Positions 5,820-46,298 of a stretch of DNA of 64,000 bases are shown here, one piece after another. The position numbers and the translations under genes are program-made. Origin of the DNA: an uncultured Caldilineaceae bacterium (GTDB lineage Bacteria > Chloroflexota > Anaerolineae > 4572-78 > J111); NCBI GenBank assembly GCA_964398055.1, contig CAYNLK010000005.1, positions 77,875-141,874 on the forward strand. The letters run 5' to 3'. Each line of letters begins with the position of its first letter. Within the stretch, counting starts at the first letter, position 1. A model generated the notes under the pieces. That model saw only the letters and a list, made by a program, of their open reading frames with translations. It searched no databases and was not told the origin of the DNA.

Positions 5820-6554
5820 TCAGAGGGAACCACCCAGAACTTTGGGTCCGGTCGGGCCAGGGCTGCCGCCGGAGGGTTCGATAGTGATGCCAAAGCCGGT
5901 ATAGCTGGATAGCGGGGCAACCGAATCGATCCAGAGCGCCCCATACCCTTCTTCACTCACCGAGAAAACCCCGCCGCTGTCGCGCTGGTCATCCTCGATC
6001 AACCAGAGTTGGTACTGCTGGCTTTCAGTGAGTGGCGGCAACCGGTCAACCACCAGGGTGCCGTGGTGACCATCGAGACTGATGACGATCAGGCCGCTGG
6101 CCGCCGGTACGGCTTCGGTGCCGCTCAAGACAACGGTCCGCATCACGCCGCCAGGCTGTTGGGCGGCGGCCAATTGGTTGAGCCGCTGCCACAACCAGAG
6201 ATTACTGAGGCCCAATAACACGACCAAAATCAGGGCCGCGGCGACCCAGAGCAGGCTGGTTCGGCGCATGGAGACTAGCCACGAGGCCCACCAGGTTGAC
6301 CGGGGTTGAGCCATGACCCTGGTTCGCGGCGGTTGAATCCGCTCCAACAACCTGGCTCTCAACTCCGGGCGAGGCGCAACTTTGGGCGCAGCCAAGGCCA
6401 ACCGGCCAACCGTCGCCTCATAGGCGCGCAATTGGACCCGGCAATCGGCGCAGACAGCCAGATGTTCCGCAACAGTAATCAGCTCGTCCTCATCCAGGCA
6501 ATCCAAGGCATAGGCCGGTAATAGGTCCGCAACATGCGCTTCAGCAGACATCAA
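5820..6554 (-). CDS. Anti-sigma factor (zf-HC2 N-terminus, TM, RskA-like extracytoplasmic domain)
   Basis: HLAVCADCRV zinc-finger-like motif, a central TM helix, and a position directly downstream of an ECF sigma gene. Confidence 0.75.
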   Translation of the reverse strand: MMSAEAHVADLLPAYALDCLDEDELITVAEHLAVCADCRVQLRAYEATVGRLALAAPKVAPRPELRARLLERIQPPRTRVMAQPRSTWWASWLVSMRRTSLLWVAAALILVVLLGLSNLWLWQRLNQLAAAQQPGGVMRTVVLSGTEAVPAASGLIVISLDGHHGTLVVDRLPPLTESQQYQLWLIEDDQRDSGGVFSVSEEGYGALWIDSVAPLSSYTGFGITIEPSGGSPGPTGPKVLGGSL

Positions 6555-6622
6555 AATTCCTCTTCACTTCACACTTCCTCTACCCTACTATACGTAACCA
6601 AATCGTTCTTGGATTTAGCAGG

Positions 6623-7207
6623 TTACTCAAACTGATCATCCGGTAATAGCTGGCGCAACTTTTGCACCGCCAGGCGAATACGGGTTTTGATGGTACCCAG
6701 CGGCTGCCCCAGCTCCTCGGCAATCTGGCGATGGCTGTACCCTTTGAAATAAGCGAGGGCCAGGGCTTGTTGCTGGTCGGCCGGCAATTGGGCTACCGCC
6801 GCCCGAATCTGGGCCTGCTGGAGAGCAAGCTCGGTCGCCGTTTCGGGATTATGACCATTGAGAAGCGCAGTGGCCGGTAGTTCAAACCAACTCAGGCTAT
6901 CCTTTTCCGGACGACTGCGCCGGCGCCGCACCAGGTCAATCGAGCGGTGGCGAGCAATGCTGGTCAGCCAAGTCGTAACCTTGGCCTGGTTAGCCTGGTA
7001 GGTGTCGGCTTTTTCCCAAACCCGACTGAACACGTCGAGGGTGATCTCTTCGGCCGTAGCCTGATCACCGACAATATTGAAGGCCAGGCTAAAGACCAGC
7101 CGGTTGTACCGGTCATACAGGGCCGTCAGGGCGTCCGGTTGGGCTCGAGCAATAAGCCGGATCAGGCTTTCATCGGCCAGGGTTGAGTATTCCACAAAAT
7201 GATGCAT
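6623..7207 (-). CDS. ECF (group IV) sigma-70 family factor
   Basis: Region 2 (FSLAFNIVGDQATAEEITLDVF) and a region 4 HTH (YFKGYSHRQIAEELGQPLGTIKTRI). Confidence 0.85.
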   Translation of the reverse strand: MHHFVEYSTLADESLIRLIARAQPDALTALYDRYNRLVFSLAFNIVGDQATAEEITLDVFSRVWEKADTYQANQAKVTTWLTSIARHRSIDLVRRRRSRPEKDSLSWFELPATALLNGHNPETATELALQQAQIRAAVAQLPADQQQALALAYFKGYSHRQIAEELGQPLGTIKTRIRLAVQKLRQLLPDDQFE

Positions 7208-7326
7208 CCTCTTTGGAAGTCGATAGAGCTTATTTTACCACAAATTGGCCCATCGTTAGAACAATTTGCCTCCCCAATCAAAATAGCCTCGCTTATGAGG
7301 ATTTAAGCTGAGTCCTCCCGCCAGAT

Positions 7327-7761
7327 TCAACGACAATTGGGCATTAAATTGAGCTGGTTGGTTATCTCGGCTGGATTGAGCAGGCCCAATTGGCGGCTAC
7401 GCTCTTGAGCGCGTTCATCGAACAAGATTAAGGCCGGAATCAACCACACCCCATATCGGCGGGCCGCGATTCGACCGACAGGACTCAAAAAATCTAACCG
7501 AATTACGGTCAATCTCCCGTCGAATTTTCGCTCTAACCCATCCACGATAGGTTTGTAAGTGACACAAACCGTTCAAAAATTGGAGTAGAAATAGAGCAGC
7601 GTCGGTTGGCCCTGACCAATTTGGGCGGTTAAGGCCTCAAAGGACTCAACCGGCGTTGGTTTGGCGTGCCAAAAGAGATGAACCAATAGCCACGCCGCCA
7701 GGGCCAGGCCGCCGACTGTAATCAAGGTTATTTTGAGTAAAGAAATCCCATTGATGAGCAT
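7327..7761 (-). CDS. Membrane-anchored thioredoxin-fold protein with in-frame TGA at the first active-site Cys position (candidate selenoprotein U-x-x-C; alternatively a nonsense pseudogene)
   Basis: ORFs 7573..7761 and 7327..7545 share one frame. Reading through the TGA at 7573..7575 gives ...LLYFYSNF-U-TVCVTYKPIVDGLERKFDGRLTVIRLDF...YGVWLIPALILFDE, which is colinear with the thioredoxin WCGPC...cis-Pro region. Confidence 0.6.
7550..7570 (-). promoter_or_regulatory. Hairpin immediately 3' of the in-frame UGA (SECIS candidate)
   Basis: The mRNA reads UGA-AC-GGUUUGU-GUCACUU-ACAAACC. This is a perfect 7-bp stem with a 7-nt loop containing G and U, starting 2 nt after the UGA. Confidence 0.4.
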
Positions 7762-7792
7762 GCTGGCACCTCGTTGTCATTGGCAATTTTTT

Positions 7793-7826
7793 CCAAAAAA
7801 CAAGGCCCTATCTGAAGATAGGGCCC
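7793..7826 (-). terminator. Rho-independent terminator after the DUF2892 gene
   Basis: GGCCCTATCT/AGATAGGGCC stem (7804..7825), followed on the minus strand by TTGTTTTTTGG. Confidence 0.6.
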
Positions 7827-7850
7827 TGGACCAGTTCTAAAATAAATGAT

Positions 7851-8051
7851 TTAGCTTTTGCGCGTGCTGAATTTGAAGGGCAAGTAAAGCGGACACCAAC
7901 CGACCACACCGGTCAACAGCGGGATGAAGCCGATGATCCCGACGATAGTCCCCACCGTACCGGTCAGAACGAAAAAGCCGACCACGATGAGCACCAGTCC
8001 AACCACAATTCTTAGAACCCGATCGATACCGCCGACATTTAGTGTAAACAT
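7851..8051 (-). CDS. DUF2892 (YgaP-like) small membrane protein
   Basis: 66 aa with two TM helices. The N-terminus GGIDRVLRIVVGLVLIV and the C-terminal GWCPLY motif are typical of DUF2892. Confidence 0.7.
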   Translation of the reverse strand: MFTLNVGGIDRVLRIVVGLVLIVVGFFVLTGTVGTIVGIIGFIPLLTGVVGWCPLYLPFKFSTRKS

Positions 8052-8122
8052 TGTTTGTCTCCTCGTTTAGATTGATTTAGCTTGGTTTTTGTAGGGCCAT
8101 TTTCGGCCCTTTCACTCCTTTA

Positions 8123-8148
8123 GACGGGAACAAAGGTCAAAGGTTACA
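8123..8148 (-). promoter_or_regulatory. ECF-type promoter candidate in front of the DUF2892 gene
   Basis: The minus strand reads TGTAACCTTTGACCTTTGTTCCCGTCTAAA (AAC-N16-CGTC). It is nearly identical to the motif at 9020..9045. Confidence 0.5.
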
Positions 8149-8151
8149 AGA

Positions 8152-10475: not shown

Positions 10476-11171
10476 TTAGTCATTATCGTTATCGTCATCA
10501 TCATCGTCGTCATTGCTGTTGCCGCCATGGTCGTCATTGTCGTTGTCATCGTTATCATTGTTGTTGTCATTACCATTATCGTCATCATCGCGATCGTCAT
10601 CATTGTCGTTGTTAGAATTATCGTCGTCATCATCAAATTCATCATCGCCATTGTCGTTGAAATCGCGGTCATCGAATTCGTCATCAGAGAAATCATCATT
10701 GTCGTTGAAGTTATCATCGTCAAAAGCGCCGTTATCATTTGAATTATCGTCGAAGTCATCGTTATCGTTTCCATTGAGGTCGTCATCGTCGTTGGCGTTG
10801 CTGTTGGAGTTGACGCTGTTGTCATTTGAATTATCAACATCATTGTCATTGGCATTATCGTCGACATTATCGTTGCCGTTGTCATTGACGTTTTCCAGGC
10901 TATCATTGGCGTTGCCGCCATTGTCGTTCACATTATTGTTTTCATTGGTATTGGCGTCGTTGGCATTGCTGTTATCATCGTTGACATTGGCAGTGCTATT
11001 GTCATCAGTCACATTACTGTTGGCCTCGTCCCCGGCGACCATATTGGTGTTATTGGCCTGATTGTCATTGCTTGGCAATGAACCCGGAGCCTGGCAGGCG
11101 GTTACAACTCCGGCCAAGATTATGACCAGGATAATGACTAAGTTTGTTGAAAAAAGTTTAGAGCGTTTCAT
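10476..11171 (-). CDS. Secreted or lipoprotein-like, extremely Asp/Asn-rich polyanionic protein
   Basis: I prefer the ATG at 11171 (MKRSKLFSTNLVIILVIILAGVVTAC, signal peptide with Cys). The rest is almost only N/D/S/G/F and ends in DDDDDDDNDND. Confidence 0.6.
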   Translation of the reverse strand: MKRSKLFSTNLVIILVIILAGVVTACQAPGSLPSNDNQANNTNMVAGDEANSNVTDDNSTANVNDDNSNANDANTNENNNVNDNGGNANDSLENVNDNGNDNVDDNANDNDVDNSNDNSVNSNSNANDDDDLNGNDNDDFDDNSNDNGAFDDDNFNDNDDFSDDEFDDRDFNDNGDDEFDDDDDNSNNDNDDDRDDDDNGNDNNNDNDDNDNDDHGGNSNDDDDDDDNDND

Positions 11172-11296
11172 GGGTTCTCTCCTTGTGTTGTAATTATTGC
11201 TAGATTTAATACGTTGTGAACTTACAAACAGCAGATATACTTTTGTCTCAAATGTCTCAAAGCTTACAACGTCTTGTCTCCTTCCACCTGTCGATA

Positions 11297-12883
11297 TCAA
11301 CCTCCTTTCCCCTCATCCCGGTCCGGCTGTGGGAGCACCTGGAAGATAACCGCGTCCTCGCTGCGATAGAGTTCTCTTAGCTGCGGATCGGCCTCAGCTC
11401 GACGCAAAAACTCTTTGTGGTTCAAATCAGTCAGGACGTAACTGGCCCCAAACGTCTCGGCGATGGTCCGGGCAGGCGTCTCCACCCGCCCTTTGGTAAC
11501 ATCCACCCACAAGTCATACAGCTCGGCGTCGTACAGTTGCATATAGGTGGGATCCAGCCCCAGAGTGTAAGTGTTGTGGGTGTTGTAATAAAACAGGCGA
11601 GTAAAATCGTCCCAATCCGTCTGGAATACTCGACTGCCGGCCGGTGTGTTGGCCTGCAGCCAGGCCGACGCCCCGGCATACTGCTGGTAAGGCTTGGACT
11701 TTTGCAGGCTGGCCTGGCTGGCCTGGATATTCCACCAGATCGCCGGGATGAGAATCAGCGCCAACACCACCGGCGCCTCACGGCCAACCCACTTGCGGGC
11801 CTGGCTCCAGCCACTGAACAGCGGCCCCCAGGCCAGGGCCGAAAATAGCAGCGCAAACGCGGGGAAGTACTCCACAAAACGGCGGGATTTGAACAGCATC
11901 AACCCGAACAGCAGCGCTACCACCAGCAGCGTGGCTGTGGCCACGTTCATACGGCGCTCGTGCAACCCCAGAGCAAAGACGCCGGCCGCAAAGGCGACCA
12001 GGGCCAGCCCGGAATTTTCCACCAGAGTCCAGGTTTGATAGGGATACCACTCGTTGCCCACCCGGGTGGCGGTGGCGTCGGTCAGTTTGGGGGCCAGGTG
12101 GTGGTAAATGAAGGCCAGATTCTCGGGAAAGTAGGGATTGATGACCAACCCCAGGCCCACCCCTAATCCGGCCAAGAGCAGCGGTCTAAGCTCGAGTTGG
12201 CGTTCCAGCAGCCAGCGCACGGCCACGTACAACCCGACCACTACCAAAATCAACGGGAAGGCGTTGTATAACCACACGTACAGGAAGGCCAGCGGCAGCA
12301 GCCAGCGATACCGTTGAGTCAGGCTGAAGTGCAGCGCCAAAAACAGCACCAGCAGCGACGCCGCCTGGACCCGCGGCATACTCATGCGGTAAAGAAACGC
12401 CTCCGACACGGCCAGCAGCCCCAGCGACCACAGGGCCGCGTAAGGGACTCGCTGACCCCGCAGCAAGAGCCAGCCGGTCAGAAAGGTGAGAGCGGGCAAG
12501 ATGACGCTGGCCCATTTGGCCCCCAACCGCAGGTCGCCGTAAGTGAAGGGCATCAACAGCACGTGATAAAGGAAATGGTGGTCGTAGTAGGCCTCGGTGT
12601 TCAGAATAGTCAGCGGCAGCCAGGGAAAAGGCGGCCGTAAGCCCTGCTCCCGCATCACCTGGGCCAATTTGATATGGTAGTAACCATCATTGCCGGCTAA
12701 ATCAGGGGTCGCAAACTGGATGGCGGCCAAGACCGCGATAAAAATCACCAACAACAGTGCGCCGGTCAGGCCGACCCGCCAATTGATGGCGACAGCTGGC
12801 CAGATGAAACGGCCCGTGATCGGATTTAGTCGAACTGGCAAAGACTTGATCGGTTCTGCGCTCATAGTTCCCTTAACTCCCAT
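11297..12883 (-). CDS. Polytopic membrane protein, GT-C/ArnT-PMT-like putative glycosyltransferase
   Basis: About 11 TM helices with a DGYYH-type loop after TM1, plus a soluble C-terminal domain of about 130 aa. The assignment is by architecture only. Confidence 0.45.
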   Translation of the reverse strand: MGVKGTMSAEPIKSLPVRLNPITGRFIWPAVAINWRVGLTGALLLVIFIAVLAAIQFATPDLAGNDGYYHIKLAQVMREQGLRPPFPWLPLTILNTEAYYDHHFLYHVLLMPFTYGDLRLGAKWASVILPALTFLTGWLLLRGQRVPYAALWSLGLLAVSEAFLYRMSMPRVQAASLLVLFLALHFSLTQRYRWLLPLAFLYVWLYNAFPLILVVVGLYVAVRWLLERQLELRPLLLAGLGVGLGLVINPYFPENLAFIYHHLAPKLTDATATRVGNEWYPYQTWTLVENSGLALVAFAAGVFALGLHERRMNVATATLLVVALLFGLMLFKSRRFVEYFPAFALLFSALAWGPLFSGWSQARKWVGREAPVVLALILIPAIWWNIQASQASLQKSKPYQQYAGASAWLQANTPAGSRVFQTDWDDFTRLFYYNTHNTYTLGLDPTYMQLYDAELYDLWVDVTKGRVETPARTIAETFGASYVLTDLNHKEFLRRAEADPQLRELYRSEDAVIFQVLPQPDRDEGKGG

Positions 12884-13209: not shown

Positions 13210-13776
13210 ATGATTAACGACGAGCAACTGCTGGCCCAGGCCAAACAACTCGATCCCGCGGCGTTGCGAGCACTGCACCAGCGCTTCTACGAGCCTGTGG
13301 CGCGCTACATCCAGTTCAAGGTAGGCGACCGGCAAACCGTGGAAGACCTGAGCGGCGAGGTCTTTGTGCGCGTGCTGGAAGGCTTGAAGCGCGGCTACGG
13401 CTGGCGAGAGACGCCTCAGGCCTGGATTATGGGCATTGCCCGCAACGTCGTGGTCGATTACTATCGCAAAAAAGAGCGACAGGCCGAGGTGAGGCTCAAC
13501 GACCAGTTAGTCGCCGCCGAGCATAGCGACCCGACCCACCAGGCGGCCGAGAGTGAGCAACAACACCAGCTCATGCAGGCCATCCGGCAGTTGACCGACG
13601 AGCAGCGAGATGTGATTTTAATGCGTTTTATGGAGGGTATTGATATCAACGGCGTCGCCCAGGCGATCAACAAATCACCTGGCGCCGTCAAAGGACTCCA
13701 ATATCGAGCCCTGCGCGCCCTGGCCGAAATCATGGGGGCTGTTTCGGCTGAAGGGGTGGTAGGAGCAAAAAGATGA
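13210..13776 (+). CDS. ECF (group IV) sigma-70 family factor
   Basis: Region 2 (VEDLSGEVFVRVLE, ARNVVVDYYRKK) and a region 4 HTH (FMEGIDINGVAQAINKSPGAVKGLQYRAL). Confidence 0.85.
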   Translation: MINDEQLLAQAKQLDPAALRALHQRFYEPVARYIQFKVGDRQTVEDLSGEVFVRVLEGLKRGYGWRETPQAWIMGIARNVVVDYYRKKERQAEVRLNDQLVAAEHSDPTHQAAESEQQHQLMQAIRQLTDEQRDVILMRFMEGIDINGVAQAINKSPGAVKGLQYRALRALAEIMGAVSAEGVVGAKR

Positions 13777-14972
13777 CCACAAACAACAACTTCAATCGGA
13801 TGGACGACAAACTCGATCAGGCCCTGGCCCGGCTGGCCGTCGGCGCCCCCGTAGAGGTTATTCTGGCTGAGGCCGGCAACGACGCCGAACAGTTGCGGCC
13901 CCTGTTGGAAATTGCTGCGGAGGTGGCCAACCTGAAGTTGGCTGTGCCGATTCCACCGCCGGAAGCCAGCTTACAAAAGCTATTGGCTCACGGCGAAAAG
14001 TTGACACATTCAACTTGGCTGCCGGCGGCTGCCCGGCCCGGCTGGCTGGTAAATCTATTGAACATTTTTAAGGGGGGCTTCCGGCTGGCCGCCGGTTTGG
14101 CCACGGCTATGCTGCTGTTCTTGGTGATGAGTGGGACGGTCTATGTGGCGGCTCAACGCAGCCTGCCCGGCGACTCCCTCTACCGCCTTAAGCAGGTTAG
14201 CGAACGGGTTCAACTCAATTTGGCCGGCGACTCGCTCCGGCGCGAGCAACTGTCGCAGATGTTCAACCAGCGCCGCCGGGCGGAAATAGAGGCGCTGCTC
14301 AACCAGGGTAAAAGCGCCGAGGTTGCCTTTGAAAGCCAGGTTCAAGCGGTTAATGCCAGCACCATCATGTTGGATGGCCTGACCGTCCAGCTCGGGCCGG
14401 AAACCCAGATTGTTGGCCAACCAACTGCCGGGGCGCGGGTTCGGGTGCAGGTCCGCACCCTGCCGCCCAACAACCTGCTGGCCCTGACGATCACCGTGAT
14501 TGAGCCGGGCCTGCCGCCGACGCCGTCGCCCACCGCCACCGCCACCCCGTCCAAAGCCCAGGCTACCGATACACTGCCGCCAACAGCCACTCTACCTAAA
14601 GCGCAAGCGACCGATACCATCGTCTTGCCGCCCACGCCCTCACCTACGCCTACGGCCAGGCCAACCCAGCCGCCGCTGCTCACCGGTGACAACCTCAACG
14701 ATAACAGCCGGGCTGACGATTTCAACCAGAATAGTGATGACGACGTCAACGATAACGCTGATGAAAATGCTGACTTTGATGACGACAACTTCAATGATAA
14801 TGACGATGAGTTTAACGATGACGACCGTGACAACAATTCAAATGACAATGGCGGGGATGACAACGACAACAATGACGATCACTCAGGCTCTGGCGGTGGC
14901 AGCAACGATAATTCCGACGACAATGACGACGATAGCAACAACAACAATGATGATGATGACGACGATGACTAA
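13773..14972 (+). CDS. Membrane-spanning anti-sigma-like protein (DUF5667-like) with Pro/Thr linker and Asp/Asn-rich polyanionic tail
   Basis: ATGA start/stop overlap with the sigma gene and one TM helix (LAAGLATAMLLFLVMSG). A PT-rich linker leads to the tail ...ADFDDDNFNDNDDEFNDDD...NNNNDDDDDDD. Confidence 0.65.
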   Translation: MTTNNNFNRMDDKLDQALARLAVGAPVEVILAEAGNDAEQLRPLLEIAAEVANLKLAVPIPPPEASLQKLLAHGEKLTHSTWLPAAARPGWLVNLLNIFKGGFRLAAGLATAMLLFLVMSGTVYVAAQRSLPGDSLYRLKQVSERVQLNLAGDSLRREQLSQMFNQRRRAEIEALLNQGKSAEVAFESQVQAVNASTIMLDGLTVQLGPETQIVGQPTAGARVRVQVRTLPPNNLLALTITVIEPGLPPTPSPTATATPSKAQATDTLPPTATLPKAQATDTIVLPPTPSPTPTARPTQPPLLTGDNLNDNSRADDFNQNSDDDVNDNADENADFDDDNFNDNDDEFNDDDRDNNSNDNGGDDNDNNDDHSGSGGGSNDNSDDNDDDSNNNNDDDDDDD

Positions 14973-15091: not shown

Positions 15092-17785
15092 CTAACCCAG
15101 CTCCTTCAACCGATCCCAGGTTTTGGCGGCCTGGAGTTCCAGGTCCGCCAGTTTCTCCCGCTCTCGCTCAACCACTTCGGCCGGGGCCTTGTTGACAAAG
15201 CCCGGATTGGCCAGCTTGGTCTTGCTGGCTGCTATCAGCTTTTCAAGTTGAGCGATTTCCTTCTGGCAACGCTCGCGCTCGGCCGCCAAGTCGATCATAC
15301 CGGCCAGCGGCAGGAAAATCTCGATGCCGCCGGCAATCACCTGCCCGGCGGCCTGAGCCGGCTTCTCCGCCAGGCTCACCGACAGTTCCAGCCGCTCCCC
15401 ATCCAACCGGGCCAGAGCGGTGATGATCTCCTGGTGTTTGACCAGCAAATCATAATGCTCGCCGCCGGCCAGGTAAGCGGCAATCCGTTTGGCCGGTTCC
15501 ACGTCATATTCGGAACGAATGTTGCGAATCGCACGAATCACCTCGATCAAGACAGACATCTGGGCTTCGGCCTCGTCGTCGAGCAGGGCCGGACTCTGGC
15601 TGGGCCACGCGGCGATCATCAAGCTCTCACCCTCGTGAGGCAGATGCTGCCAGGCCGCCTCGGTGATAAAGGGAATGAAGGGATGGAGCATCCGCAGGGT
15701 CCGGTCCAACACATGGACCAGCACCCGGCGGGCGGTGGCCTGCGCCCGCGCATCCGTACCGTACAGCCGGATTTTGGCAACCTCGATATACCAGTCAGCA
15801 AACTCACTCCACAGAAAATCGTAAAGTTGGCGGCCGGCCTCGCCAAATTGATAACTATCAATGAGGCGGGTCACGTTGGCCACCAGCCGGTTGAGCCGGC
15901 TCAGAATCCAGCGATCCGGCAGGGTCAAACCGGAGAGGTTCCAGGTACTGCCGGCGCCGGATTGAAAGGCGGTGCCCAAATTGCTGACCACAAAGCGAGT
16001 GGCGTTCCAAATTTTATTGCTGAAGTTTCTATTGGCGGCAATCCGCTCGATTGACAGGTTCATATCATTGCCGGGCGTCGAGCCGGTCAGGAGGGTGAAG
16101 CGGAGGGCGTCGGTGCCGTATTGATCCATGATCTCCAGCGGATCGAGCACATTGCCGGCCGTTTTGCTCATCTTCCGGCCATGCTCGTCCCGAATCAGGC
16201 CGTGCAGGTAGACAGTGTGGAACGGGACCGTGCCGGTGAACTCCAAACCGCTCATAATCATCCGGGCCACCCAGAAGAAGAGAATATCGTACCCGGTCTC
16301 CATCACGCTGGTGGGGTAGTAACGGCGCAGGTCGGGGGTGTCATCCGGCCAGCCCAGCGTCGAGAACGGCCACAGGCCGGAGCTAAACCAGGTGTCTAAC
16401 ACATCCGGGTCCTGCTCAAGCCGTTGGCTGTGGCAGTGGACGCACTCGGTCGGGTCCTGGCGGGTCACGGTCATGCCCTGGCAATCGGCGCAATACCACA
16501 CCGGGATACGATGGCCCCACCACAACTGGCGGCTGATGCACCAGTCGCGAATGTTTTCAAGCCAGTTATTGTAAACCTTGGTAAACCGATCCGGGATGAT
16601 GGTAATCCGGCCGTCGGCCACGGCGGCCAGCCCTTTCTCGGCCAGGGGTTTGGTTTTGACAAACCACTGGGTCGACACCATCGGCTCGACAACCTCGCCG
16701 CCCCGCTGCGAGCGGGGCACCTGCATCCGGTACGGCTTGACCTCGATGGTCAAACCGGCGGCCTCCATATCGGCCCACAACTTCTGGCGGCACTCAAAGC
16801 GGTCCATCCCGGCGTATGGCCCGGCGTGCTCATTCATGGTGGCGTCTTTGTTCATCACGTTGATGATCATCAGGCCGTGGCGCTGGCCAATCTCAAAGTC
16901 ATTGGGGTCGTGACCCGGGGTGATTTTGAGCGCGCCGGTGCCAAAAGCCATATCCACATAGGTATCGTGGATGACCGGGATGGTCCGCTTGAGCATGGGC
17001 ACCAGGCAGGTTTTGCCGATCAGGTGGCGATAACGCTCGTCGTCGGGATGGACGGCCACGGCAGTATCGCCCAAAATAGTTTCGGGCCGGGTGGTCGCCA
17101 CCGGCAGGAACTCGTCGCTGCCGGCGATGGGATATTTGAAAAAGTAGAGCCGGCCCTCTTCCTCGCTGTACTCCACCTCAAGATCGCTGACCGCAGTTTG
17201 CAAGCCGGGCGACCAGTTGATCAGGTATTCACCCCGGTAGATCAGTCCCTTTTCGTACAGGCTAACAAAGGCTTCGCGCACCGCCCGCGACAGCCCCTCG
17301 TCCATGGTAAAGCGTTCCCGCTGCCAGTCACACGAAGCCCCCAGCCGGCGATGCTGCCGGGTGATGATCCCACCATACTTCTCTTTCCAGGCCCAGGTAC
17401 GTTCCAGAAATTTGTCGCGGCCAATGGCCTCACGGCTGGTACCTTCCTCTCGCAGCGCCCGTTCCAACTGCAGTTGGGTGGCGATGCCGGCGTGGTCGGA
17501 GCCGGGCACCCACAGAGCCGCCCGGCCATTCATGCGGTGGTAGCGGATCATCAGGTCCTCCACCGACGCGGTTATGGCGTGGCCCAAATGGAGGGCGCCG
17601 GTTACGTTGGGCGGCGGCATCGAAATGACAAAGGGTTCAGCCGTCTCAGGGGCGATTTCCGGCTTGAAGTAACCCTGACTCTCCCACCAGTCATAGAGCG
17701 GCTCTTCAAACAGGGCTGGCTCATAGGCCTTGGCCATATTTTCCGGGTCGATGGGTAAGTTCTGCTTCGTTAACTCGTTTGCCAT
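15092..17785 (-). CDS. valS: Valine--tRNA ligase
   Basis: Class I HIGH (PNVTGALHLGH) and KMSKS (GRKMSKTAGN) motifs, an editing domain and a C-terminal coiled coil. I prefer the ATG at 17785 (MANELTK). Confidence 0.95.
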   Translation of the reverse strand: MANELTKQNLPIDPENMAKAYEPALFEEPLYDWWESQGYFKPEIAPETAEPFVISMPPPNVTGALHLGHAITASVEDLMIRYHRMNGRAALWVPGSDHAGIATQLQLERALREEGTSREAIGRDKFLERTWAWKEKYGGIITRQHRRLGASCDWQRERFTMDEGLSRAVREAFVSLYEKGLIYRGEYLINWSPGLQTAVSDLEVEYSEEEGRLYFFKYPIAGSDEFLPVATTRPETILGDTAVAVHPDDERYRHLIGKTCLVPMLKRTIPVIHDTYVDMAFGTGALKITPGHDPNDFEIGQRHGLMIINVMNKDATMNEHAGPYAGMDRFECRQKLWADMEAAGLTIEVKPYRMQVPRSQRGGEVVEPMVSTQWFVKTKPLAEKGLAAVADGRITIIPDRFTKVYNNWLENIRDWCISRQLWWGHRIPVWYCADCQGMTVTRQDPTECVHCHSQRLEQDPDVLDTWFSSGLWPFSTLGWPDDTPDLRRYYPTSVMETGYDILFFWVARMIMSGLEFTGTVPFHTVYLHGLIRDEHGRKMSKTAGNVLDPLEIMDQYGTDALRFTLLTGSTPGNDMNLSIERIAANRNFSNKIWNATRFVVSNLGTAFQSGAGSTWNLSGLTLPDRWILSRLNRLVANVTRLIDSYQFGEAGRQLYDFLWSEFADWYIEVAKIRLYGTDARAQATARRVLVHVLDRTLRMLHPFIPFITEAAWQHLPHEGESLMIAAWPSQSPALLDDEAEAQMSVLIEVIRAIRNIRSEYDVEPAKRIAAYLAGGEHYDLLVKHQEIITALARLDGERLELSVSLAEKPAQAAGQVIAGGIEIFLPLAGMIDLAAERERCQKEIAQLEKLIAASKTKLANPGFVNKAPAEVVEREREKLADLELQAAKTWDRLKELG

Positions 17786-18081
17786 ATGCTCTACTCCTAA
17801 ATTAAAAACCCCTTTCATCCTCAAGGACGAAAGGGATTCCCTCTCCGCGGTACCACCTTGATTGCCGGCGTTAATTACCTTGCCGACCTCTCTGCTCGCG
17901 CTAACGGGCGAACCCGAAGCAACCTACTGGGCTGGGCCGTTCAGTTGCTCAACTCCCAGGCGACCTTCGGCGGTGATGACTGAGCGAGGCTTCCAGCCAA
18001 TAACCCCACCTCTCTGGCAGTCTCGGACCACCTACTCCTCCTGCTCAACGTTTTTGATTAAATTGATTAACTCTGAAAGCA
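17786..18081 (-). promoter_or_regulatory. T-box leader (tRNA-sensing riboswitch) of valS, candidate GUC specifier
   Basis: On the minus strand there is an AGAGA box (CCAGAGAGG) and a candidate specifier GAAG-GUC-G (17962..17964). The T-box sequence AAGGTGGTACCGCGG lies at 17845..17857. A terminator, CCCTTTC...GAAAGGG + GTTTTT, lies at 17804..17835. Confidence 0.8.
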
Positions 18082-22578: not shown

Positions 22579-23616
22579 TTACTCAACTCCCAAATCGGTA
22601 ACAGAAACATTGTCGATAACCGTTTTACCGCCCTGCTCGGCCATAGGGTGAAAACCTTTGATGAAGATGGTCATACTTTCTCCGGTGGCCGTAACCGTCT
22701 CTTCCGTCGCCGTCCAGACGTCCTCGCCGCCCTCATCCCAGGCAAACCACTGTACCGTCTCGGCGTTCCAGACCGTACCGCCGGTCAGATCAACCCCAAG
22801 CGCCATCTGCACCGGCGACAAACTGCGGTCGTGCTTGGCAAAAGCGGTGATACTGTAGCGATGGCCCGGTCTGGTCGAGATGGTCCGCCAGACGCCGGAA
22901 GTGGCCTGGATGAAGTCAAAAGTGATCTCCTGAGATTTGCGACCGGAGAAGACATTGGGTTGATAAAGGTTTTCATTCATGCAGGAGGAGCCATACGGCC
23001 CATCTTCCACAAAGGCTGTCCAGCCGGAAGCAACCGCAGCCCCCGGACAGGGTTCACCATAAGGATTGGGCCAGGGAATGAATTCGGTTTCAAAATCCCA
23101 GTCGCCGCCTTGCAGCGGCGGGTCCGGCGTAACCACCCGGCGGGTGGGGGCGGCCGTCGCGACGGCGGCGGTTAAGGCCAGGGTAGCCGTCACTTCGACC
23201 GCCGGTTCTATCAACGGCAGCGTGGCGAACGGAGTCGGCGACGGGCGCGGCGTCGGCGCGTTGGGGTTGGGAGTGTGAGTCGGGGCATCGAGCATCGGCA
23301 AAACCGCGGCCGGTTCGGCTTCGAGCAGCTCAGTCTCCGGGGTAACCCGGTTGGGGTCGAGCGTGGGCGTGGCGGTTTGAATCTCATACGCGGCCGGTCG
23401 TTGGGGCGGAATAGCTGTTGCCCCTCCTCCCAACGAACAAGCCAGGGACAACAGAGCTACAACCACCAGCCAAAGCCAGGGACGACGGGTGGCAAGTCGC
23501 AGGGTGCGGGTCGCAGGTTGCAGGGTACAGGGTGCAGAAGGTGGTTCGTAGGATGTCGGCAGAAGATTTACCGCCTGACCGGCGGCCAATTTGTAACCGA
23601 TAGTTTTAAGTTTCAT
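22579..23616 (-). CDS. Membrane-anchored surface protein with Pro/Thr linker and C-terminal beta-sandwich (CBM-like) domain, paralogue 1
   Basis: TM anchor and PT-rich linker. The C-terminal domain begins LQGGDWDFETEFIPWPNPYGEPCPG and ends TVIDNVSVTDLG. It is a paralogue of the next gene. Confidence 0.6.
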   Translation of the reverse strand: MKLKTIGYKLAAGQAVNLLPTSYEPPSAPCTLQPATRTLRLATRRPWLWLVVVALLSLACSLGGGATAIPPQRPAAYEIQTATPTLDPNRVTPETELLEAEPAAVLPMLDAPTHTPNPNAPTPRPSPTPFATLPLIEPAVEVTATLALTAAVATAAPTRRVVTPDPPLQGGDWDFETEFIPWPNPYGEPCPGAAVASGWTAFVEDGPYGSSCMNENLYQPNVFSGRKSQEITFDFIQATSGVWRTISTRPGHRYSITAFAKHDRSLSPVQMALGVDLTGGTVWNAETVQWFAWDEGGEDVWTATEETVTATGESMTIFIKGFHPMAEQGGKTVIDNVSVTDLGVE

Positions 23617-23621
23617 CTATC

Positions 23622-24512
23622 TTACTCCGGCCCAAGATCGACAATCCGGATCGAGTCAAGGCGCAAGGCCCCACCGGGTTCCGGGTAGGGATGAGATCCT
23701 TTGATAAAAATGGTCATCGTTTCGGCTGCAGCCGTAGCTGTGGCTTCGGTGCGGCTCCAGGCATCGTCCAGGTCTTCCAACCAGGGAAACCACTGAACCG
23801 TATCGGCCTGCCAGTCGACGCCGCCGGTCGGATCTAGCCCCAGAGACACCTCCACCTTGGCCGGGCTGAACTCGCGGCGCATAAAGGCCTCAACGCTGTA
23901 ACGATGGCCCGGAACAGTTGGCGCCGCTCTAAAAATACCAGCCTCGATGCCGACATAGGCAAAGGTAATCTCCTGGGCGCTTACACCAGAGTGGACGTTA
24001 GCCTGCCAGACCGTTTCATTGAAGCAAGCCGAGCCAAACTGGTCGCGGGTGGTGAAGGAGTTCCAGCCGTTGGCCAAACCCGAGCCTGGACAGACATCCC
24101 CATAGGGATTCTGCCAGACGGAAAAGCCCTCCTCAAAATCCCAAACGCCGCCTTGCAGCGGCTCGGCCGGGGGTGAGGTTGGGGTGGGGGTCGGCGGCGC
24201 CGTGGGGATCGGTGGGCTAACCGCTTCCGGGGCCGGCATCGGTGTTTCCGCCAATTGCGTCGCCAGAGTGGAGGTAATGGTGGAAGTGATGGTTGAAGTC
24301 AGCGCCGGGGTAGGGGTAACGTTCGGGTCAGGGGTGTAGGTTGGGGCGTCGGCCAGGAACATCACCGGCGTAACGGTGGGGGTAGACGTTTGAATTTCAA
24401 AAACCAGTTGGTCCAATGTTGGCGCCGGTTGCGGCGTTTGCCGCGCCAGGGCGCAGGCCAGGCTGGGCAGCAACAAAATAGCTACCCACCAGGGCAGGTC
24501 GATCTTAACCAT
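23622..24512 (-). CDS. Membrane-anchored surface protein, paralogue 2
   Basis: I prefer the ATG at 24512 (MVKIDLPWWVAILLLPSLACA). The C-terminal domain LQGGVWDFEEGFSVWQNPYGDVCPG...LRLDSIRIVDLG is homologous to 22579..23616. Confidence 0.6.
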   Translation of the reverse strand: MVKIDLPWWVAILLLPSLACALARQTPQPAPTLDQLVFEIQTSTPTVTPVMFLADAPTYTPDPNVTPTPALTSTITSTITSTLATQLAETPMPAPEAVSPPIPTAPPTPTPTSPPAEPLQGGVWDFEEGFSVWQNPYGDVCPGSGLANGWNSFTTRDQFGSACFNETVWQANVHSGVSAQEITFAYVGIEAGIFRAAPTVPGHRYSVEAFMRREFSPAKVEVSLGLDPTGGVDWQADTVQWFPWLEDLDDAWSRTEATATAAAETMTIFIKGSHPYPEPGGALRLDSIRIVDLGPE

Positions 24513-24589
24513 TCGCGCTCTCCTAAAAAGTTCCCGCCCCAGATTATACCCAGGAGCAGCTAAATTGGCGAGAATTGCACTAAGATAAG

Positions 24590-24679
24590 GTGACCGGCGC
24601 TTCCAACTAATCCTGAATTGGATTTGTCGCCCAAGCACCCTAATTTTGGCTCGAAAATAGTGATGAAAGCGCCGGTCAC
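24590..24679. repeat. 13-nt inverted repeat in divergent intergenic region, related to the GTGACCGGC palindrome family
   Basis: GTGACCGGCGCTT (24590..24602) and AAGCGCCGGTCAC (24667..24679). Confidence 0.6.
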
Positions 24680-24723
24680 GTAAAAAATTGGACGGCCTCA
24701 CGCAGAATGAGTCTGCCCGAATC

Positions 24724-26233: not shown

Positions 26234-26239
26234 GGAACA

Positions 26240-27043
26240 ATGAGCCTGCAACCCATCCGTTTGGCCACTTTTCTGGCCCCAAATATGCTCCCGGTCTACC
26301 AGTTCATCGCTACATATGTGGCCGAGAAACTCAACCACCCGACTGAACTGAGCGTGGGGTCATCGTTTGATCAATTTGCTGCCGGCCAGGTCGACGTGGG
26401 CTTTATTTGTGGCCTGCCCTATGTGCTCCTGGCTCGGCAGTCGCCGCCGCCGGTGGAACTGCTGGCCGCGCCGGTGCTGGCAGGAGAACGCTACCAGGAT
26501 CGCCCCATTTATTTTTCCGATGTGATTGTCCACCGCGACAGTCCGTATCAATCATTCGCCGACCTGCGCGGCTGCACCTGGGCCTACAACGATCCCGACT
26601 CCCATTCCGGGTACAACATTACCCGTTACCGCCTGATCCAAATGGGTCAGACCCGGGGTTTTTTTGGCCGGGTCGTGGCCGCGGGCTGGCATCAACGGGC
26701 CATCCAGATGGTTTGTGCCGGCGAAATCGACGCCGCCGCCATCGACTCCCAGGTGTTGGCCATTGAACTGCGCGACCAGCCCGAACTGGCGGCTCAACTA
26801 CGGGTAATCGACACGCTTGGCCCGGCCGCCATTCAGCCGGTGGTGGCGGCCAGTCGCCTGCCGGACAGCCTAAAAACCGAGCTGCAAGCCATCTTACTGA
26901 CGATGTCCGACGATCCGGTCACGCGGGAGCGATTGGCCCACGGGTTTATCAGGCGGTTTGCGCTGGTCACTGACGCCACCTATGACGATATCCGGGAGAT
27001 GCTGGCCGCGGCTGAAGCAATCGGCTTTATGACGATCAAATAG
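26240..27043 (+). CDS. PhnD-like (phosphonate-type) periplasmic-binding-fold protein lacking a signal peptide
   Basis: Pattern LATFLAPNMLPVYQFIATYV...DVGFICGLPY...SHSGYN, with no N-terminal hydrophobic leader. Confidence 0.55.
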   Translation: MSLQPIRLATFLAPNMLPVYQFIATYVAEKLNHPTELSVGSSFDQFAAGQVDVGFICGLPYVLLARQSPPPVELLAAPVLAGERYQDRPIYFSDVIVHRDSPYQSFADLRGCTWAYNDPDSHSGYNITRYRLIQMGQTRGFFGRVVAAGWHQRAIQMVCAGEIDAAAIDSQVLAIELRDQPELAAQLRVIDTLGPAAIQPVVAASRLPDSLKTELQAILLTMSDDPVTRERLAHGFIRRFALVTDATYDDIREMLAAAEAIGFMTIK

Positions 27044-45432: not shown

Positions 45433-45536
45433 AACATCACATAGGCAAATCATTCATCCTTTTGCTACCTTTGAGGTATAATGAATGTGGTAGGATGTGA
45501 TAGGATGTGATAGTACTTAAGAATTGAGAAACGGTG

Positions 45537-46295: not shown

Positions 46296-46298
46296 AGG

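What the first reader, a model, noticed from the sequence alone, without database searches (positions are those of the whole stretch)
7327..7761. Thioredoxin with UGA in place of the nucleophilic Cys: candidate U-x-x-C selenoprotein
ORFs 7573..7761 and 7327..7545 are in the same frame, separated only by TGA (7573..7575) and nine sense codons. The joined product reads TM anchor...PTLLYFYSNF-[TGA]-TVCVTYKPIVDGLERKFDGRLTVIRLDFLSPVGRIAARRYGVWLIPALILFDE. This is colinear with E. coli TrxA [53 protein letters not shown]. The TGA falls exactly on the first Cys of CxxC, and the resolving Cys and the cis-Pro (IPA) are retained. Starting 2 nt after the UGA, the mRNA can fold into a perfect 7-bp hairpin, GGUUUGU-GUCACUU-ACAAACC (7550..7570). 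That is where a bacterial SECIS would be expected, although it sits somewhat closer to the UGA than the classical fdhF element. Both halves look intact, with no further stops or frameshifts. The alternative is a recent TGT/TGC-to-TGA nonsense mutation.
Basis: partly seen in the sequence, partly recalled or inferred. Interest (0 to 1): 0.8.

Follow-up and report, generated by a model that had tools for sequence, protein, structure and literature searches.

The report
Membrane-anchored selenocysteine thioredoxin, misannotated as fragments
This is very probably a real selenoprotein gene: a membrane-anchored thioredoxin-like enzyme of an Anaerolineae bacterium that reads one UGA as selenocysteine.

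Summary
Window 7327..7761 (- strand) is one 144-codon thioredoxin-fold frame with a single in-frame TGA (7573..7575) where the first active-site Cys should be (U-T-V-C).

It is not a recent nonsense mutation. 99 distinct homologous sequences from Chloroflexota genomes and metagenomes carry TGA at this codon, always followed by x-x-Cys, with both halves intact. Cys-containing homologues exist. TGA is an ordinary stop elsewhere in the window. Both halves are under purifying selection.

The conserved element is the next hairpin: 8 bp plus a GUG loop at 7535..7553, with its loop 27 nt after the UGA. It meets all four criteria of the published bacterial SECIS model. It shows compensatory changes and extreme codon bias, and it is absent from 22 of 24 Cys forms.

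The Sec machinery (selA/B/D, tRNA-Sec) could not be checked because only 64 kb is available.

Sec-thioredoxins with U-x-x-C are a known selenoprotein kind, so this is a new member. It is a membrane-anchored subfamily with no curated model, and it is annotated publicly as 75-80 aa fragments.

The parts
7327..7761 (-). Complete selenoprotein gene: 144 codons plus the TGA stop at 7327..7329. It encodes a membrane-anchored thioredoxin-like protein with a U-T-V-C redox centre.
   Evidence: One frame with a single internal TGA. Pfam PF00085 is above its cut-off. Both halves are conserved in homologues. dN/dS is 0.12-0.36 in both halves.
7759..7761 (-). ATG start codon. A Shine-Dalgarno-like GAGGTG lies at 7767..7772, 5 nt upstream.
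   Evidence: Read directly from the sequence. The same N-terminus is called in relatives L001 and L145-L150.
7675..7731 (-). N-terminal transmembrane anchor (residues 11-29, ITLITVGGLALAAWLLVHL).
   Evidence: It is the most hydrophobic 19-residue window (mean Kyte-Doolittle 2.07). A comparable segment is present in 35 of the 37 family members analysed. Their N-terminal flank is net positive and their C-terminal flank net negative, which suggests N-in/C-out. The topology is inferred.
7573..7575 (-). UGA selenocysteine codon (residue 63), in the position of the nucleophilic first Cys of CxxC.
   Evidence: TGA sits at this aligned codon in 99 distinct homologous sequences. TGY is found in 24 Cys forms. 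It aligns to the first Cys of WCGPC in solved thioredoxins.
7564..7566 (-). Resolving Cys codon (residue 66) of U-x-x-C.
   Evidence: Cys is invariant in 99 of 99 TGA-bearing sequences. T10 and G11 are invariant columns in alignment A2.
7535..7553 (-). Candidate SECIS element. The 5' arm is AACCUAUC (7553..7546), the apical loop is GUG (7545..7543) and the 3' arm is GAUGGGUU (7542..7535). The stem has 8 bp, one of them a U-G pair. The loop starts 27 nt after the UGA. The hairpin lies in codons K-P-I-V-D-G-L.
   Evidence: RNAalifold predicts only this helix. 95.7% of cells are paired and 44 cells are compensatory, with 0 of 500 shuffles as good. All 99 TGA forms have at least 6 of 8 pairs and a GUN loop. 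The stem energy in the window is -8.1 kcal/mol. Codon bias at stem positions is extreme.
7543..7545 (-). The GUG apical loop of the SECIS. The mechanical ORF list takes it as the GTG 'start' of the downstream half-ORF 7327..7545. It is not a real start codon.
   Evidence: Predicted half-proteins in relatives start at differing, non-homologous positions (VDG.., MAKP.., MGCLMAKP..), so there is no conserved start.
7550..7570 (-). It is real in this sequence, but it is specific to this lineage and is not the SECIS. Its 3' arm overlaps the SECIS 5' arm by 4 nt, so the two compete.
   Evidence: Only 52.6% of cells are paired across 41 sequences, no better than shuffles or slid controls. The mean energy across the family is +1.2 kcal/mol. 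The spacing to the loop is 9 nt.
7435..7437 (-). Codon of the conserved cis-Pro (P109, in the motif I-P-A).
   Evidence: Pro is invariant in the family alignments. It aligns to the cis-Pro of thioredoxins.
7801..7828 (-). Terminator-like hairpin followed by a T-run, lying between the upstream YgaP-like gene and this gene.
   Evidence: 12 bp, 7 of them G-C, then TTTTTTGG. Whether it functions as a terminator is not tested.
7851..8051 (-). Upstream neighbour: a YgaP-like transmembrane protein (DUF2892), syntenic in the close relatives.
   Evidence: Pfam PF11127, E = 5.8e-22. The same order is seen in L001 and L145-L150.
5820..7207 (-). Downstream neighbours: an ECF sigma factor (6623..7207) and an RskA-type anti-sigma factor (5820..6554), syntenic in the close relatives.
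   Evidence: Synteny in L001-L004.

Best explanation
Window 7327..7761 (- strand) is a single gene for a 144-residue selenoprotein. It has an N-terminal membrane anchor, a roughly 25-residue linker and a thioredoxin-fold domain. The redox centre is Sec63-Thr-Val-Cys66, and there is a conserved cis-Pro at residue 109.

Mechanism of recoding (inferred from the established bacterial pathway): UGA 7573..7575 is read as selenocysteine by SelB·GTP·Sec-tRNA(Sec). SelB is tethered to the mRNA by a minimal SECIS hairpin, an 8-bp stem closing a GUG loop at 7535..7553. The G-U at the start of the loop lies 27 nt downstream of the UGA.

Enzyme function (inferred from thioredoxin-fold chemistry): the product acts as a thiol-disulfide oxidoreductase that cycles through a selenenylsulfide between Sec63 and Cys66.

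Location (inferred from the charge distribution around the anchor): the catalytic domain probably faces outside the cytoplasmic membrane, like cyanobacterial TxlA-type and ResA/CcmG-type anchored thioredoxins.

Shown here: the gene structure, the conservation of the UGA, the Cys homologues, and the conserved, covarying hairpin. Inferred: actual Sec insertion, SelB binding, topology and substrate.

The organism is an Anaerolineae-class Chloroflexota MAG.
For: 1. The TGA is conserved. It is present in all six closest relatives at 39-87% identity, with both halves in frame. It is present in 35 of 40 Chloroflexota genome loci. In total there are 99 distinct TGA sequences, always followed by x-x-Cys.

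2. Cys homologues sit at the same codon: five Chloroflexota C-S-I-C forms and the cyanobacterial TxlA-like forms.

3. The hairpin is conserved and covaries. RNAalifold finds only the helix at columns 23-30/34-41. 95.7% of cells are paired. Three pairs show compensatory change (44 cells). 0 of 500 shuffles reach this, and slid controls give 23-47%. All combinations of CCC..GGG or CCU..AGG with AUC..GAU or GUC..GAC occur.

4. Synonymous sites are selected.
- Arg is AGG in 42 of 43 sequences (background 4-5%).
- Gly is GGG in 52 of 55 (background about 20%).
- Pro is CCG or CCA in 1 of 98 (background about 50%).
- Val in the stem is always GUC.

5. The window hairpin meets all four criteria of the published bacterial SECIS model (PMC13188914):
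- loop of 3 nt;
- stem of 8 bp;
- G then U at the first loop positions;
- spacing of 27 nt;
- energy of -8.1 kcal/mol.

6. The hairpin is absent from 22 of 24 Cys forms. The comparison of 99/0 against 2/22 gives a Fisher P of 2e-22, not corrected for phylogeny.

7. Only 3 such hairpins occur in 128 kb of window sequence counting both strands.

8. TGA is a normal stop in this genome: 24 of 58 ORFs end with it.

9. dN/dS is 0.19 and 0.36 (window against L001) and 0.12 (C-half against L005).

10. The sequence is identical in four independent assemblies.

11. Fourteen genome loci of the family carry a second candidate selenoprotein immediately downstream, and further copies lie in the metagenome loci (39 distinct sequences in all). 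It is an FmdB zinc-ribbon gene. All 39 'end' at TGA inside a conserved C-x(3-6)-[TGA] tail. In most of them a strong hairpin with G at the first or second loop position follows.

12. Chloroflexota are documented Sec users (PMC13326102, PMC13582414).

13. ValRS from the window is 72-79% identical to named Anaerolineae and Anaerolineales MAG proteins.
Against: - No selA, selB, selD or tRNA-Sec was found in the 64-kb window or in the roughly 0.9 Mb of related loci. This is uninformative rather than negative, because the rest of the genome could not be reached.
- There is no experimental evidence of selenium incorporation.
- In the window itself the SECIS stem carries one U-G wobble.
- Two Cys-containing relatives (L060, L063) still carry the hairpin, one with a further compensated pair. 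The hairpin is therefore not strictly exclusive to UGA forms. This could be a fossil SECIS, as described for other families in PMC1794560, or a sign of another role.
- No Rfam family matches.
- The hairpin has no bulged U and no lower stem, unlike the E. coli fdhF element.
- Topology and substrate rest on charge counts and analogy only.
Confidence: 0.88

Rival explanations
1. Recent TGT/TGC-to-TGA nonsense mutation. The gene is a pseudogene and the downstream half is no longer translated.
For: A single-base change from TGT or TGC gives TGA. No Sec machinery is seen in the 64 kb available.
Against: - TGA is at this codon in 99 distinct sequences spanning about 30-87% amino-acid identity and several Chloroflexota classes.
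- The downstream half is intact everywhere and under purifying selection (dN/dS 0.12-0.36).
- The nine codons between the TGA and the supposed restart are conserved, including an invariant Cys.
Confidence: 0.01
2. Two separate small genes: a 62-aa membrane peptide and a 72-aa truncated thioredoxin-like protein that starts at GTG 7545. This is how the ORF list and public gene calls treat it.
For: Public gene calls list 75-80 aa 'thioredoxin family protein' fragments. A GTG is available at 7545.
Against: - The called starts are not homologous between relatives (VDG.., MAKP.., MGCLMAKP..).
- The GTG lies in a hairpin loop.
- The fragment would lack the whole active site and the first beta-strand of the fold (alignment).
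- The inter-ORF codons x-x-C-x-x-x-K-P-[IV] are conserved at the protein level.
- The frame is kept in every relative.
Confidence: 0.02
3. The UGA is decoded, but not as selenocysteine. It could be near-cognate read-through as Trp, a lineage-wide UGA reassignment, or Cys insertion. Some JGI gene calls imply this by printing W at the site.
For: JGI proteins P0006-P0008 are full length with W at the site. Sec machinery was not demonstrated for this genome.
Against: - TGA ends 24 of 58 ORFs in the window, so it is not reassigned.
- W-x-x-C would be catalytically dead in a thioredoxin fold, whereas homologues have Cys at this position.
- A conserved hairpin with a GU loop at SECIS distance has no role in simple read-through.
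- The W calls are most simply a gene caller using an alternative code.
Confidence: 0.04
4. The conserved hairpin at 7535..7553 is not (only) a SECIS. It could be a structure with another role, such as translational pausing for membrane targeting or mRNA stability. Sec insertion would then use a different or non-canonical signal.
For: Two Cys forms keep the hairpin (L060 with 7 of 8 pairs, L063 with 8 of 8 and a new G-C pair). BSepDB reports that 12.6% of bacterial selenoprotein genes lack a canonical SECIS (PMC13326102).
Against: - 22 of 24 Cys forms lack it, and 99 of 99 UGA forms have it.
- It fits every criterion of the SECIS model.
- Most of the 39 neighbouring FmdB-type TGA genes carry a hairpin with G at the first or second loop position at a similar distance.
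- L064, in the same Cys clade, is already decaying (6 of 8 pairs). This fits a fossil SECIS, of the kind described in PMC1794560.
Confidence: 0.08

Closest known systems
Selenocysteine-containing thioredoxin (Trx, PF00085, U-x-x-C). It is listed as experimentally verified; the cited study is Kim et al. 2015, and the 2006 survey lists a thioredoxin among the Treponema denticola selenoproteins (PMC13188914, PMC9312934, PMC1794560).
   Same: Thioredoxin fold matching PF00085. Sec replaces the first, nucleophilic Cys of CxxC. The resolving Cys and the cis-Pro are kept. The SECIS lies within the coding sequence just downstream of the UGA.
   Different: The protein here has an N-terminal membrane anchor and linker. 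Its motif is S-N-x-U-x-x-C rather than W-U-G-P-C. It scores far below the TrxA equivalog cut-off (35.7 against 96.8 bits). Soluble canonical WCGPC TrxA genes sit next to it in at least 8 relatives, so it is a distinct paralogue.
Cyanobacterial TxlA / slr1796-type membrane-anchored thioredoxin-like proteins (NCBIfam NF038096).
   Same: Same architecture of a single N-terminal anchor followed by a thioredoxin domain. They are recovered as the nearest non-Chloroflexota homologues and share the G-Q-P-T-L-V-E-F-Y motif before the active site.
   Different: They have Cys (W-C-x-x-C), not Sec, and no hairpin. The score against NF038096 is 16 bits, with a cut-off of 140. They have a long C-terminal extension that is absent here.
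Predicted selenoproteins 'thiol:disulfide interchange protein' (PF13098, UxxC) and 'thiol-disulfide isomerase-like' (PF13905, UxxC) of Deltaproteobacteria and marine metagenomes (PMC9312934).
   Same: U-x-x-C thioredoxin-fold oxidoreductases known only from sequence. The protein here also matches PF13098 just above its cut-off (27.9 against 27).
   Different: Different lineage (Chloroflexota).
Bacterial SECIS elements (consensus model of Zhang and Gladyshev 2005, as summarised in PMC13188914; E. coli fdhF is the classic case).
   Same: A stem-loop immediately downstream of the UGA within the ORF. G followed by U opens a small apical loop. The spacing is 27 nt, within the 16-37 nt range. The energy is below -7.5 kcal/mol.
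   Different: The form is minimal: a plain 8-bp stem with a 3-nt loop. It has no bulged U, no internal loop and no conserved lower stem. No Rfam model matches it.

Membership tests
Bacterial selenoprotein gene (Sec-UGA recoding) | The in-frame UGA is conserved at the same codon across orthologues, with coding conservation on both sides. | tested here: met
   99 distinct TGA-bearing sequences. Both halves are in frame and intact. dN/dS is 0.12-0.36.
Bacterial selenoprotein gene (Sec-UGA recoding) | Homologues carry Cys at the position aligned to the UGA (a Sec/Cys pair). | tested here: met
   24 distinct Cys forms: Chloroflexota C-S-I-C and C-x-x-C..KPVVDRLE clades, and cyanobacterial W-C-x-x-C.
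Bacterial selenoprotein gene (Sec-UGA recoding) | A bacterial SECIS downstream of the UGA with a 3-9 nt loop, a 4-16 bp upper stem, G in the first two loop positions, 16-37 nt spacing and MFE of -7.5 kcal/mol or lower (PMC13188914). | tested here: met
The hairpin at 7535..7553 has loop GUG, an 8-bp stem, 27-nt spacing and -8.1 kcal/mol. It is conserved with covariation.
Bacterial selenoprotein gene (Sec-UGA recoding) | The genome encodes selA, selB, selD and tRNA-Sec. | not testable with these tools
   None are in the 64-kb window or the fetched loci (the only hit was EF-Tu). Literature shows that Chloroflexota use Sec.
Bacterial selenoprotein gene (Sec-UGA recoding) | Selenium is demonstrably incorporated at the UGA position. 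| not testable with these tools
   This needs 75Se labelling or mass spectrometry.
Thioredoxin family (Pfam PF00085) | The sequence scores above the Pfam gathering threshold. | tested here: met
   30.6 bits against a cut-off of 23.5, E = 3.6e-7, residues 42-127 (with U written as C).
Thioredoxin family (Pfam PF00085) | A C/U-x-x-C active site and a cis-Pro at the canonical positions of the fold. | tested here: met
   In alignments to solved thioredoxins, U63 falls on the first Cys of WCGPC, C66 on the second, and P109 on the cis-Pro. These residues are invariant in the family.
Canonical thioredoxin TrxA (NCBIfam TIGR01068 / NF006898 equivalogs) | The score reaches the equivalog cut-off. | tested here: not met
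   35.7 bits against 96.8, and 31.2 against 138. A separate WCGPC TrxA gene lies upstream in at least 8 relatives.
Cyanobacterial slr1796/TxlA-type factor (NCBIfam NF038096) | The score reaches the equivalog cut-off. | tested here: not met
   16.2 bits against 140. The architecture is similar, but it is not a member.
DsbE/CcmG/ResA/TlpA anchored thiol-disulfide oxidoreductases | The score reaches the family cut-off (TIGR00385, NF002854). | tested here: not met
   15.6 bits against 123 for the window protein. Relatives score at most 19 bits against 170.
Any curated NCBIfam selenoprotein-specific model | The score reaches the cut-off of a selenoprotein family model. | tested here: not met
   No such model reaches its cut-off for the window protein or for two relatives. 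The best is seleno_TsoB at 29.7 bits against 805, for a relative only.

The most novel reading that the evidence does not exclude
This may be a selenoprotein subfamily that has not been catalogued: a membrane-anchored, probably extracytoplasmic Sec-thioredoxin that is widespread in Anaerolineae and other Chloroflexota. It is served by a lineage-typical minimal SECIS, a plain stem closing a GUN triloop.

In many genomes it forms a three-gene redox module: canonical TrxA, then the anchored Sec-thioredoxin, then an FmdB zinc-ribbon protein with its own C-terminal Sec.

The hairpin's retention in a Cys clade next to a TPMT/TehB-type methyltransferase could point to a link with selenium or tellurium handling.
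Probability: 0.3. Interest if true: 0.5.

Novelty: new member of a known kind. Interest (0 to 1): 0.4.

Why it matters
The gene is real and widespread, with at least 99 distinct sequences. Public annotation nevertheless records it as two meaningless fragments, as a 75-80 aa 'thioredoxin family protein', or as a Trp-containing read-through. Correcting this would fix the annotation of many Chloroflexota genomes.

The case gives an unusually clean example of a coding-region SECIS. The RNA stem dictates codon choice, and even which amino acid is used (Gly with CCC, Arg with CCU). That makes it good material for training bacterial SECIS and selenoprotein predictors, which the field describes as error-prone (PMC13326102).

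It also flags a probable extracytoplasmic use of selenocysteine in a phylum with few cultured members. It does not change what is known about how Sec recoding works.

Tried and rejected
- Rfam, at gathering and at permissive thresholds: no SECIS or tRNA-Sec. The only window hit is a T-box.
- ARAGORN on the window and 41 loci: no tRNA-Sec.
- tblastn with E. coli SelA, SelB and SelD sequences recalled from memory, against the window plus all loci. There was one hit, which turned out to be a frameshifted EF-Tu next to tRNA-Tyr. This was a lead only and is uninformative.
There is therefore no 3-D model or fold search.
- Attempts to reach the 226,673-bp NCBI source contig failed.
- A scan of the window for further selenoprotein genes, by TGA read-through extensions and by C-GUN-G hairpins, found none. 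Two in-frame adjacent gene pairs (24779..27043 and 45534..47969) are ordinary neighbours with their own starts.
- A search for conserved neighbours found no CcdA/DsbD-type electron donor. Only TrxA and the FmdB gene recur.
- Concatenating ORFs to annotate the whole window with Pfam was prepared but dropped as too bulky. Only the ten nearest genes were annotated.
Full report
**1. What is in the sequence**

On the minus strand, 7761..7327 is one reading frame of 144 codons, interrupted once by TGA at 7575..7573. The mechanical ORF list splits it into two pieces. One is a 62-aa ORF (7573..7761, ATG start). The other is a 72-aa ORF (7327..7545, GTG start). Nine sense codons (T-V-C-V-T-Y-K-P-I) lie between them.

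With the TGA written as Cys, the product passes Pfam's own threshold for Thioredoxin PF00085 (30.6 bits against 23.5). It aligns to solved thioredoxins, including E. coli Trx1. In those alignments the TGA falls on the first Cys of WCGPC, Cys66 on the second, and Pro109 on the cis-Pro.

Residues 11-29 form a hydrophobic anchor. A GAGGTG lies 5 nt upstream of the ATG.

The TGA is not an assembly artefact. The identical 435-nt gene is found in four independent sequencing-run assemblies.

**2. The TGA is conserved, not recent**

A protein search with the joined sequence returned only half-length proteins, either C-halves or an N-half ending in ...YFYSNF. Their contigs (L001-L006) all carry TGA at the same codon, with both halves in frame. 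One distant relative reads Y-S-N-T-[TGA]-G-P-C.

A scan of one genome per species returned 53 loci. Of the 40 loci from Chloroflexota MAGs, 35 have TGA at this codon. These MAGs are labelled Anaerolineae, Caldilineae, Ardenticatenia, Ktedonobacter or Dehalococcoidia. The other five have Cys (C-S-I-C). The 13 remaining loci are mostly cyanobacterial TxlA-like homologues, and all have Cys.

A metagenome scan added more loci. Across everything fetched there are 99 distinct TGA-bearing sequences and 24 distinct Cys-bearing ones. The residue three positions after the TGA is Cys in 99 of 99.

TGA is an ordinary stop codon in this genome: 24 of 58 long ORFs in the window end with it. dN/dS is 0.19 for the N-half and 0.36 for the C-half against L001, and 0.12 for the C-half against L005.

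A recent nonsense mutation, a split into two genes, and a reassigned UGA are thereby all excluded or made very unlikely.

**3. The recoding signal is a different hairpin**

I aligned 75 nt starting at the TGA for 41 distinct sequences. The alignment has no gaps (alignment A2).

RNAalifold predicts a single helix, columns 23-30 with 34-41, closing a 3-nt loop. On that helix:
- 95.7% of cells are standard pairs.
- Three pairs change on both sides, giving 44 compensatory cells.
- None of 500 column shuffles reaches the observed values.
- Sliding the partner by 1-3 columns drops pairing to 23-47%.

Its mean energy over the family is +1.2 kcal/mol, against -9.6 kcal/mol for the conserved helix.

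The conserved helix lies in codons K-P-[I/V]-V-D-[G/R]-x, and the RNA constraint is visible in codon choice:
- Pro CCC goes with Gly GGG, and Pro CCU goes with Arg AGG.
- Ile AUC goes with Asp GAU, and Val GUC goes with Asp GAC.
- Lys AAA or AAG goes with U or C in the first position of the next codon.
- All combinations of these occur.

The bias at synonymous sites is extreme:
- Arg at this site is AGG in 42 of 43 sequences. AGG is 4-5% of Arg codons in the same genomes.
- Gly is GGG in 52 of 55 (background about 20%).
- Pro is CCG or CCA once in 98 (background about half).
- The stem Val is always GUC.

The loop is GUG in 75, GUU in 10, GUC in 8 and GUA in 6 sequences, so it is always G-U-N.

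In window coordinates the 5' arm is 7553..7546, the loop is 7545..7543 and the 3' arm is 7542..7535. The loop GUG is the false GTG start of the downstream half-ORF.

The published bacterial SECIS model requires a 3-9 nt loop, a 4-16 bp stem, G in the first two loop positions, 16-37 nt between UGA and loop, and an MFE of -7.5 kcal/mol or lower (PMC13188914). The window hairpin has 3 nt, 8 bp, G-U, 27 nt and -8.1 kcal/mol.

In the whole window, counting both strands, only three C-GUN-G hairpins with at least 7 bp exist. One of them is this one.

Among the Cys forms, the same columns pair in 35% of cells. 22 of 24 have at most 5 of 8 pairs, whereas all 99 TGA forms have at least 6. The Fisher P is 2e-22, not corrected for relatedness.

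**4. Two caveats on the hairpin**

The two structures must compete.

Second, one Cys clade (E-F-Q-S-P-Y-C-x-x-C...K-P-V-V-D-R-L-E) still carries the hairpin:
- L060 has 7 of 8 pairs.
- L063 has 8 of 8, with CCG..CGG, a further compensated pair type.
- L064 has 6 of 8.

Remnant SECIS elements in Cys forms derived from Sec forms have been described (PMC1794560). This is the simplest reading, but three sequences cannot settle it.

**5. Independent sign of Sec use in these genomes**

In 14 of the TGA-bearing genome loci, the next gene downstream is an FmdB-family zinc-ribbon protein. It scores 55-56 bits against TIGR02605, whose cut-off is 31.3. More copies lie in the metagenome loci.

All 39 distinct copies 'end' at TGA, never TAA or TAG. 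The TGA sits inside a conserved tail, C-x(3-6)-[TGA]-[G/S]-[I/L]..., which then runs 2-6 more codons to another stop. In most copies a strong hairpin follows about 12-20 nt after the TGA, with G at the first or second loop position, for example GAGAGCC-GUG-GGCUCUC.

FmdB-family proteins are a listed selenoprotein family (PMC9312934, PMC13188914). This gene is not present in the window.

**6. What could not be tested**

No tRNA-Sec, selA, selB or selD is present in the window or in any fetched locus. With 64 kb of one genome this says nothing.

The window comes from an NCBI contig of 226,673 bp, which I could not retrieve.

ValRS from the window is 72-79% identical to proteins named as Anaerolineae, Anaerolineales or Chloroflexota MAGs. 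A T-box leader precedes it. Chloroflexota are documented users of Sec (PMC13326102, PMC13582414).

**7. Likely function**

The steps shown here are the thioredoxin fold, the U-x-x-C centre, the cis-Pro and the N-terminal anchor.

The following steps are inferred:
- *Chemistry.* The enzyme cycles through a Sec63-Cys66 selenenylsulfide and acts as a thiol-disulfide oxidoreductase. The cited reviews say Sec raises catalytic efficiency in thioredoxin-fold enzymes (PMC13188914).
- *Location.* The domain faces outwards. In 37 family members the segment before the anchor holds 73 Lys+Arg residues, against 37 after it, and the segment after it is net negative.

The genomic context in the window clade runs in this order: ECF sigma and zf-HC2 anti-sigma, a YgaP-like membrane protein, this gene, ECF sigma and RskA anti-sigma, a dihaem cytochrome c, DUF2231, and another cytochrome c. 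This order is syntenic in L001 and in L145-L150. It is compatible with an envelope redox or cytochrome-maturation role but does not show one.

In other clades the neighbours are a canonical WCGPC thioredoxin upstream (at least 8 loci) and the FmdB gene downstream. No CcdA/DsbD-type donor recurs.

**8. Comparison with known families**

Sec-containing thioredoxin (PF00085, U-x-x-C) is listed as an experimentally verified selenoprotein family. U-x-x-C 'thiol:disulfide interchange' proteins (PF13098) are predicted ones (PMC9312934, PMC13188914). By the domain-plus-motif scheme of those reviews, this gene falls into the thioredoxin class.

It is not a TrxA orthologue: it scores 35.7 bits against TIGR01068, whose cut-off is 96.8. 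It is not a member of the slr1796/TxlA, DsbE or ResA models. No curated selenoprotein model reaches its cut-off.

Public gene calls for the family are of three kinds:
- 75-80 aa fragments named 'thioredoxin family protein' or 'thioredoxin-related protein';
- separate N-terminal peptides;
- full-length calls with W at the site.

I could not query BSepDB, which may already list these genes.

**9. Verdict**

The gene is a genuine and widespread, but ordinary, kind of selenoprotein: a new member of the U-x-x-C thioredoxin class. It is a membrane-anchored Chloroflexota subfamily with a minimal SECIS.

My confidence that the UGA encodes Sec is about 0.88. For the SECIS assignment it is about 0.8. 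For an extracytoplasmic reductase role it is about 0.5.

Noticed in passing
L011:1597, L024:6779, L028:10654, L031:3951 and 35 other loci. Not present in the window.: The gene immediately downstream of the Sec-thioredoxin in many Chloroflexota loci is an FmdB-family zinc-ribbon protein (TIGR02605). Its ORF 'ends' at TGA in 39 of 39 distinct copies, inside a conserved tail C-x(3-6)-[TGA]-[G/S]-[I/L]. In most copies a strong hairpin with G at the first or second loop position follows. It is probably a second selenoprotein with a C-terminal Sec. The Sec position differs from the U/CxxU motif listed for the FmdB selenoprotein family.
   Followed up: partly
L060:3001-4405, L061, L062, L063:3001-3495, L064:267-1306: A Cys-containing clade of the same family (E-F-Q-S-P-Y-C-x-x-C..K-P-V-V-D-R-L-E) still carries the SECIS-like hairpin (7/8, 8/8 and 6/8 pairs). 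Its gene overlaps by 4 nt a downstream TPMT/TehB-type SAM methyltransferase gene, which is followed by an MFS transporter. TPMT/TehB-type enzymes are known (my own knowledge) to methylate selenium and tellurium compounds.
   Followed up: partly
window 17820..18057 (-): A T-box leader (Rfam RF00230, 115.9 bits) lies directly upstream of the valyl-tRNA synthetase gene at 15092..17824.
   Followed up: no
proteins P0006-P0008 (JGI metagenome gene calls): These are full-length calls of family members with Trp printed at the TGA position. The gene caller apparently applied a code in which UGA means Trp. Such calls hide selenoproteins as ordinary proteins.
   Followed up: no
window 7801..7828 (-): A strong terminator-like hairpin (12 bp, then a T-run) sits between the YgaP-like gene and the selenoprotein gene, only about 40 nt before its ATG. 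No sigma-70-type promoter was found in 7150..8150. Expression may depend on one of the flanking ECF sigma factors or on read-through.
   Followed up: no
window 10476..11300 (-) and 13773..14972 (+): Two predicted proteins have long, extremely Asp/Asn-rich low-complexity tails (runs such as DDNSNDNDDDD). The second follows an ECF sigma factor gene (13210..13776). The corresponding gene in L149 carries DUF5667/DUF5666.
   Followed up: no
window 22579..23616 (-) and 23622..24701 (-): Two adjacent genes encode similar proteins. Each has a Pro/Thr-rich linker and then a shared C-terminal domain containing G-G-x-W-D-F-E...C-P-G motifs. They appear to be tandem paralogues of unknown function.
   Followed up: no
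alignment A2, columns 10-21 (L011, L012, L024, L030, L038 and others). Not in the window clade.: Many non-window relatives have a second small hairpin (for example UGCC-UGGU-GGCA or GCC-UUUU-GGC) between the U-x-x-C codons and the SECIS stem. I did not test whether it is structural or only a by-product of the C-L-x-A codons.
   Followed up: no
L013:18821-20338: The EF-Tu gene next to tRNA-Tyr in this 2.4-Mb MAG contig is broken by several frameshifts and stops. These are probably long-read assembly errors. It is a reminder that single MAG sequences are unreliable for calling pseudogenes.
   Followed up: no
window 24779..27043 (+) and 45534..47969 (+): Two pairs of adjacent genes share a frame and are separated only by a TGA and one or two codons. 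Each downstream gene has its own ATG, and no Cys or redox motif flanks the TGA. They are ordinary neighbours, not selenoproteins.
   Followed up: yes
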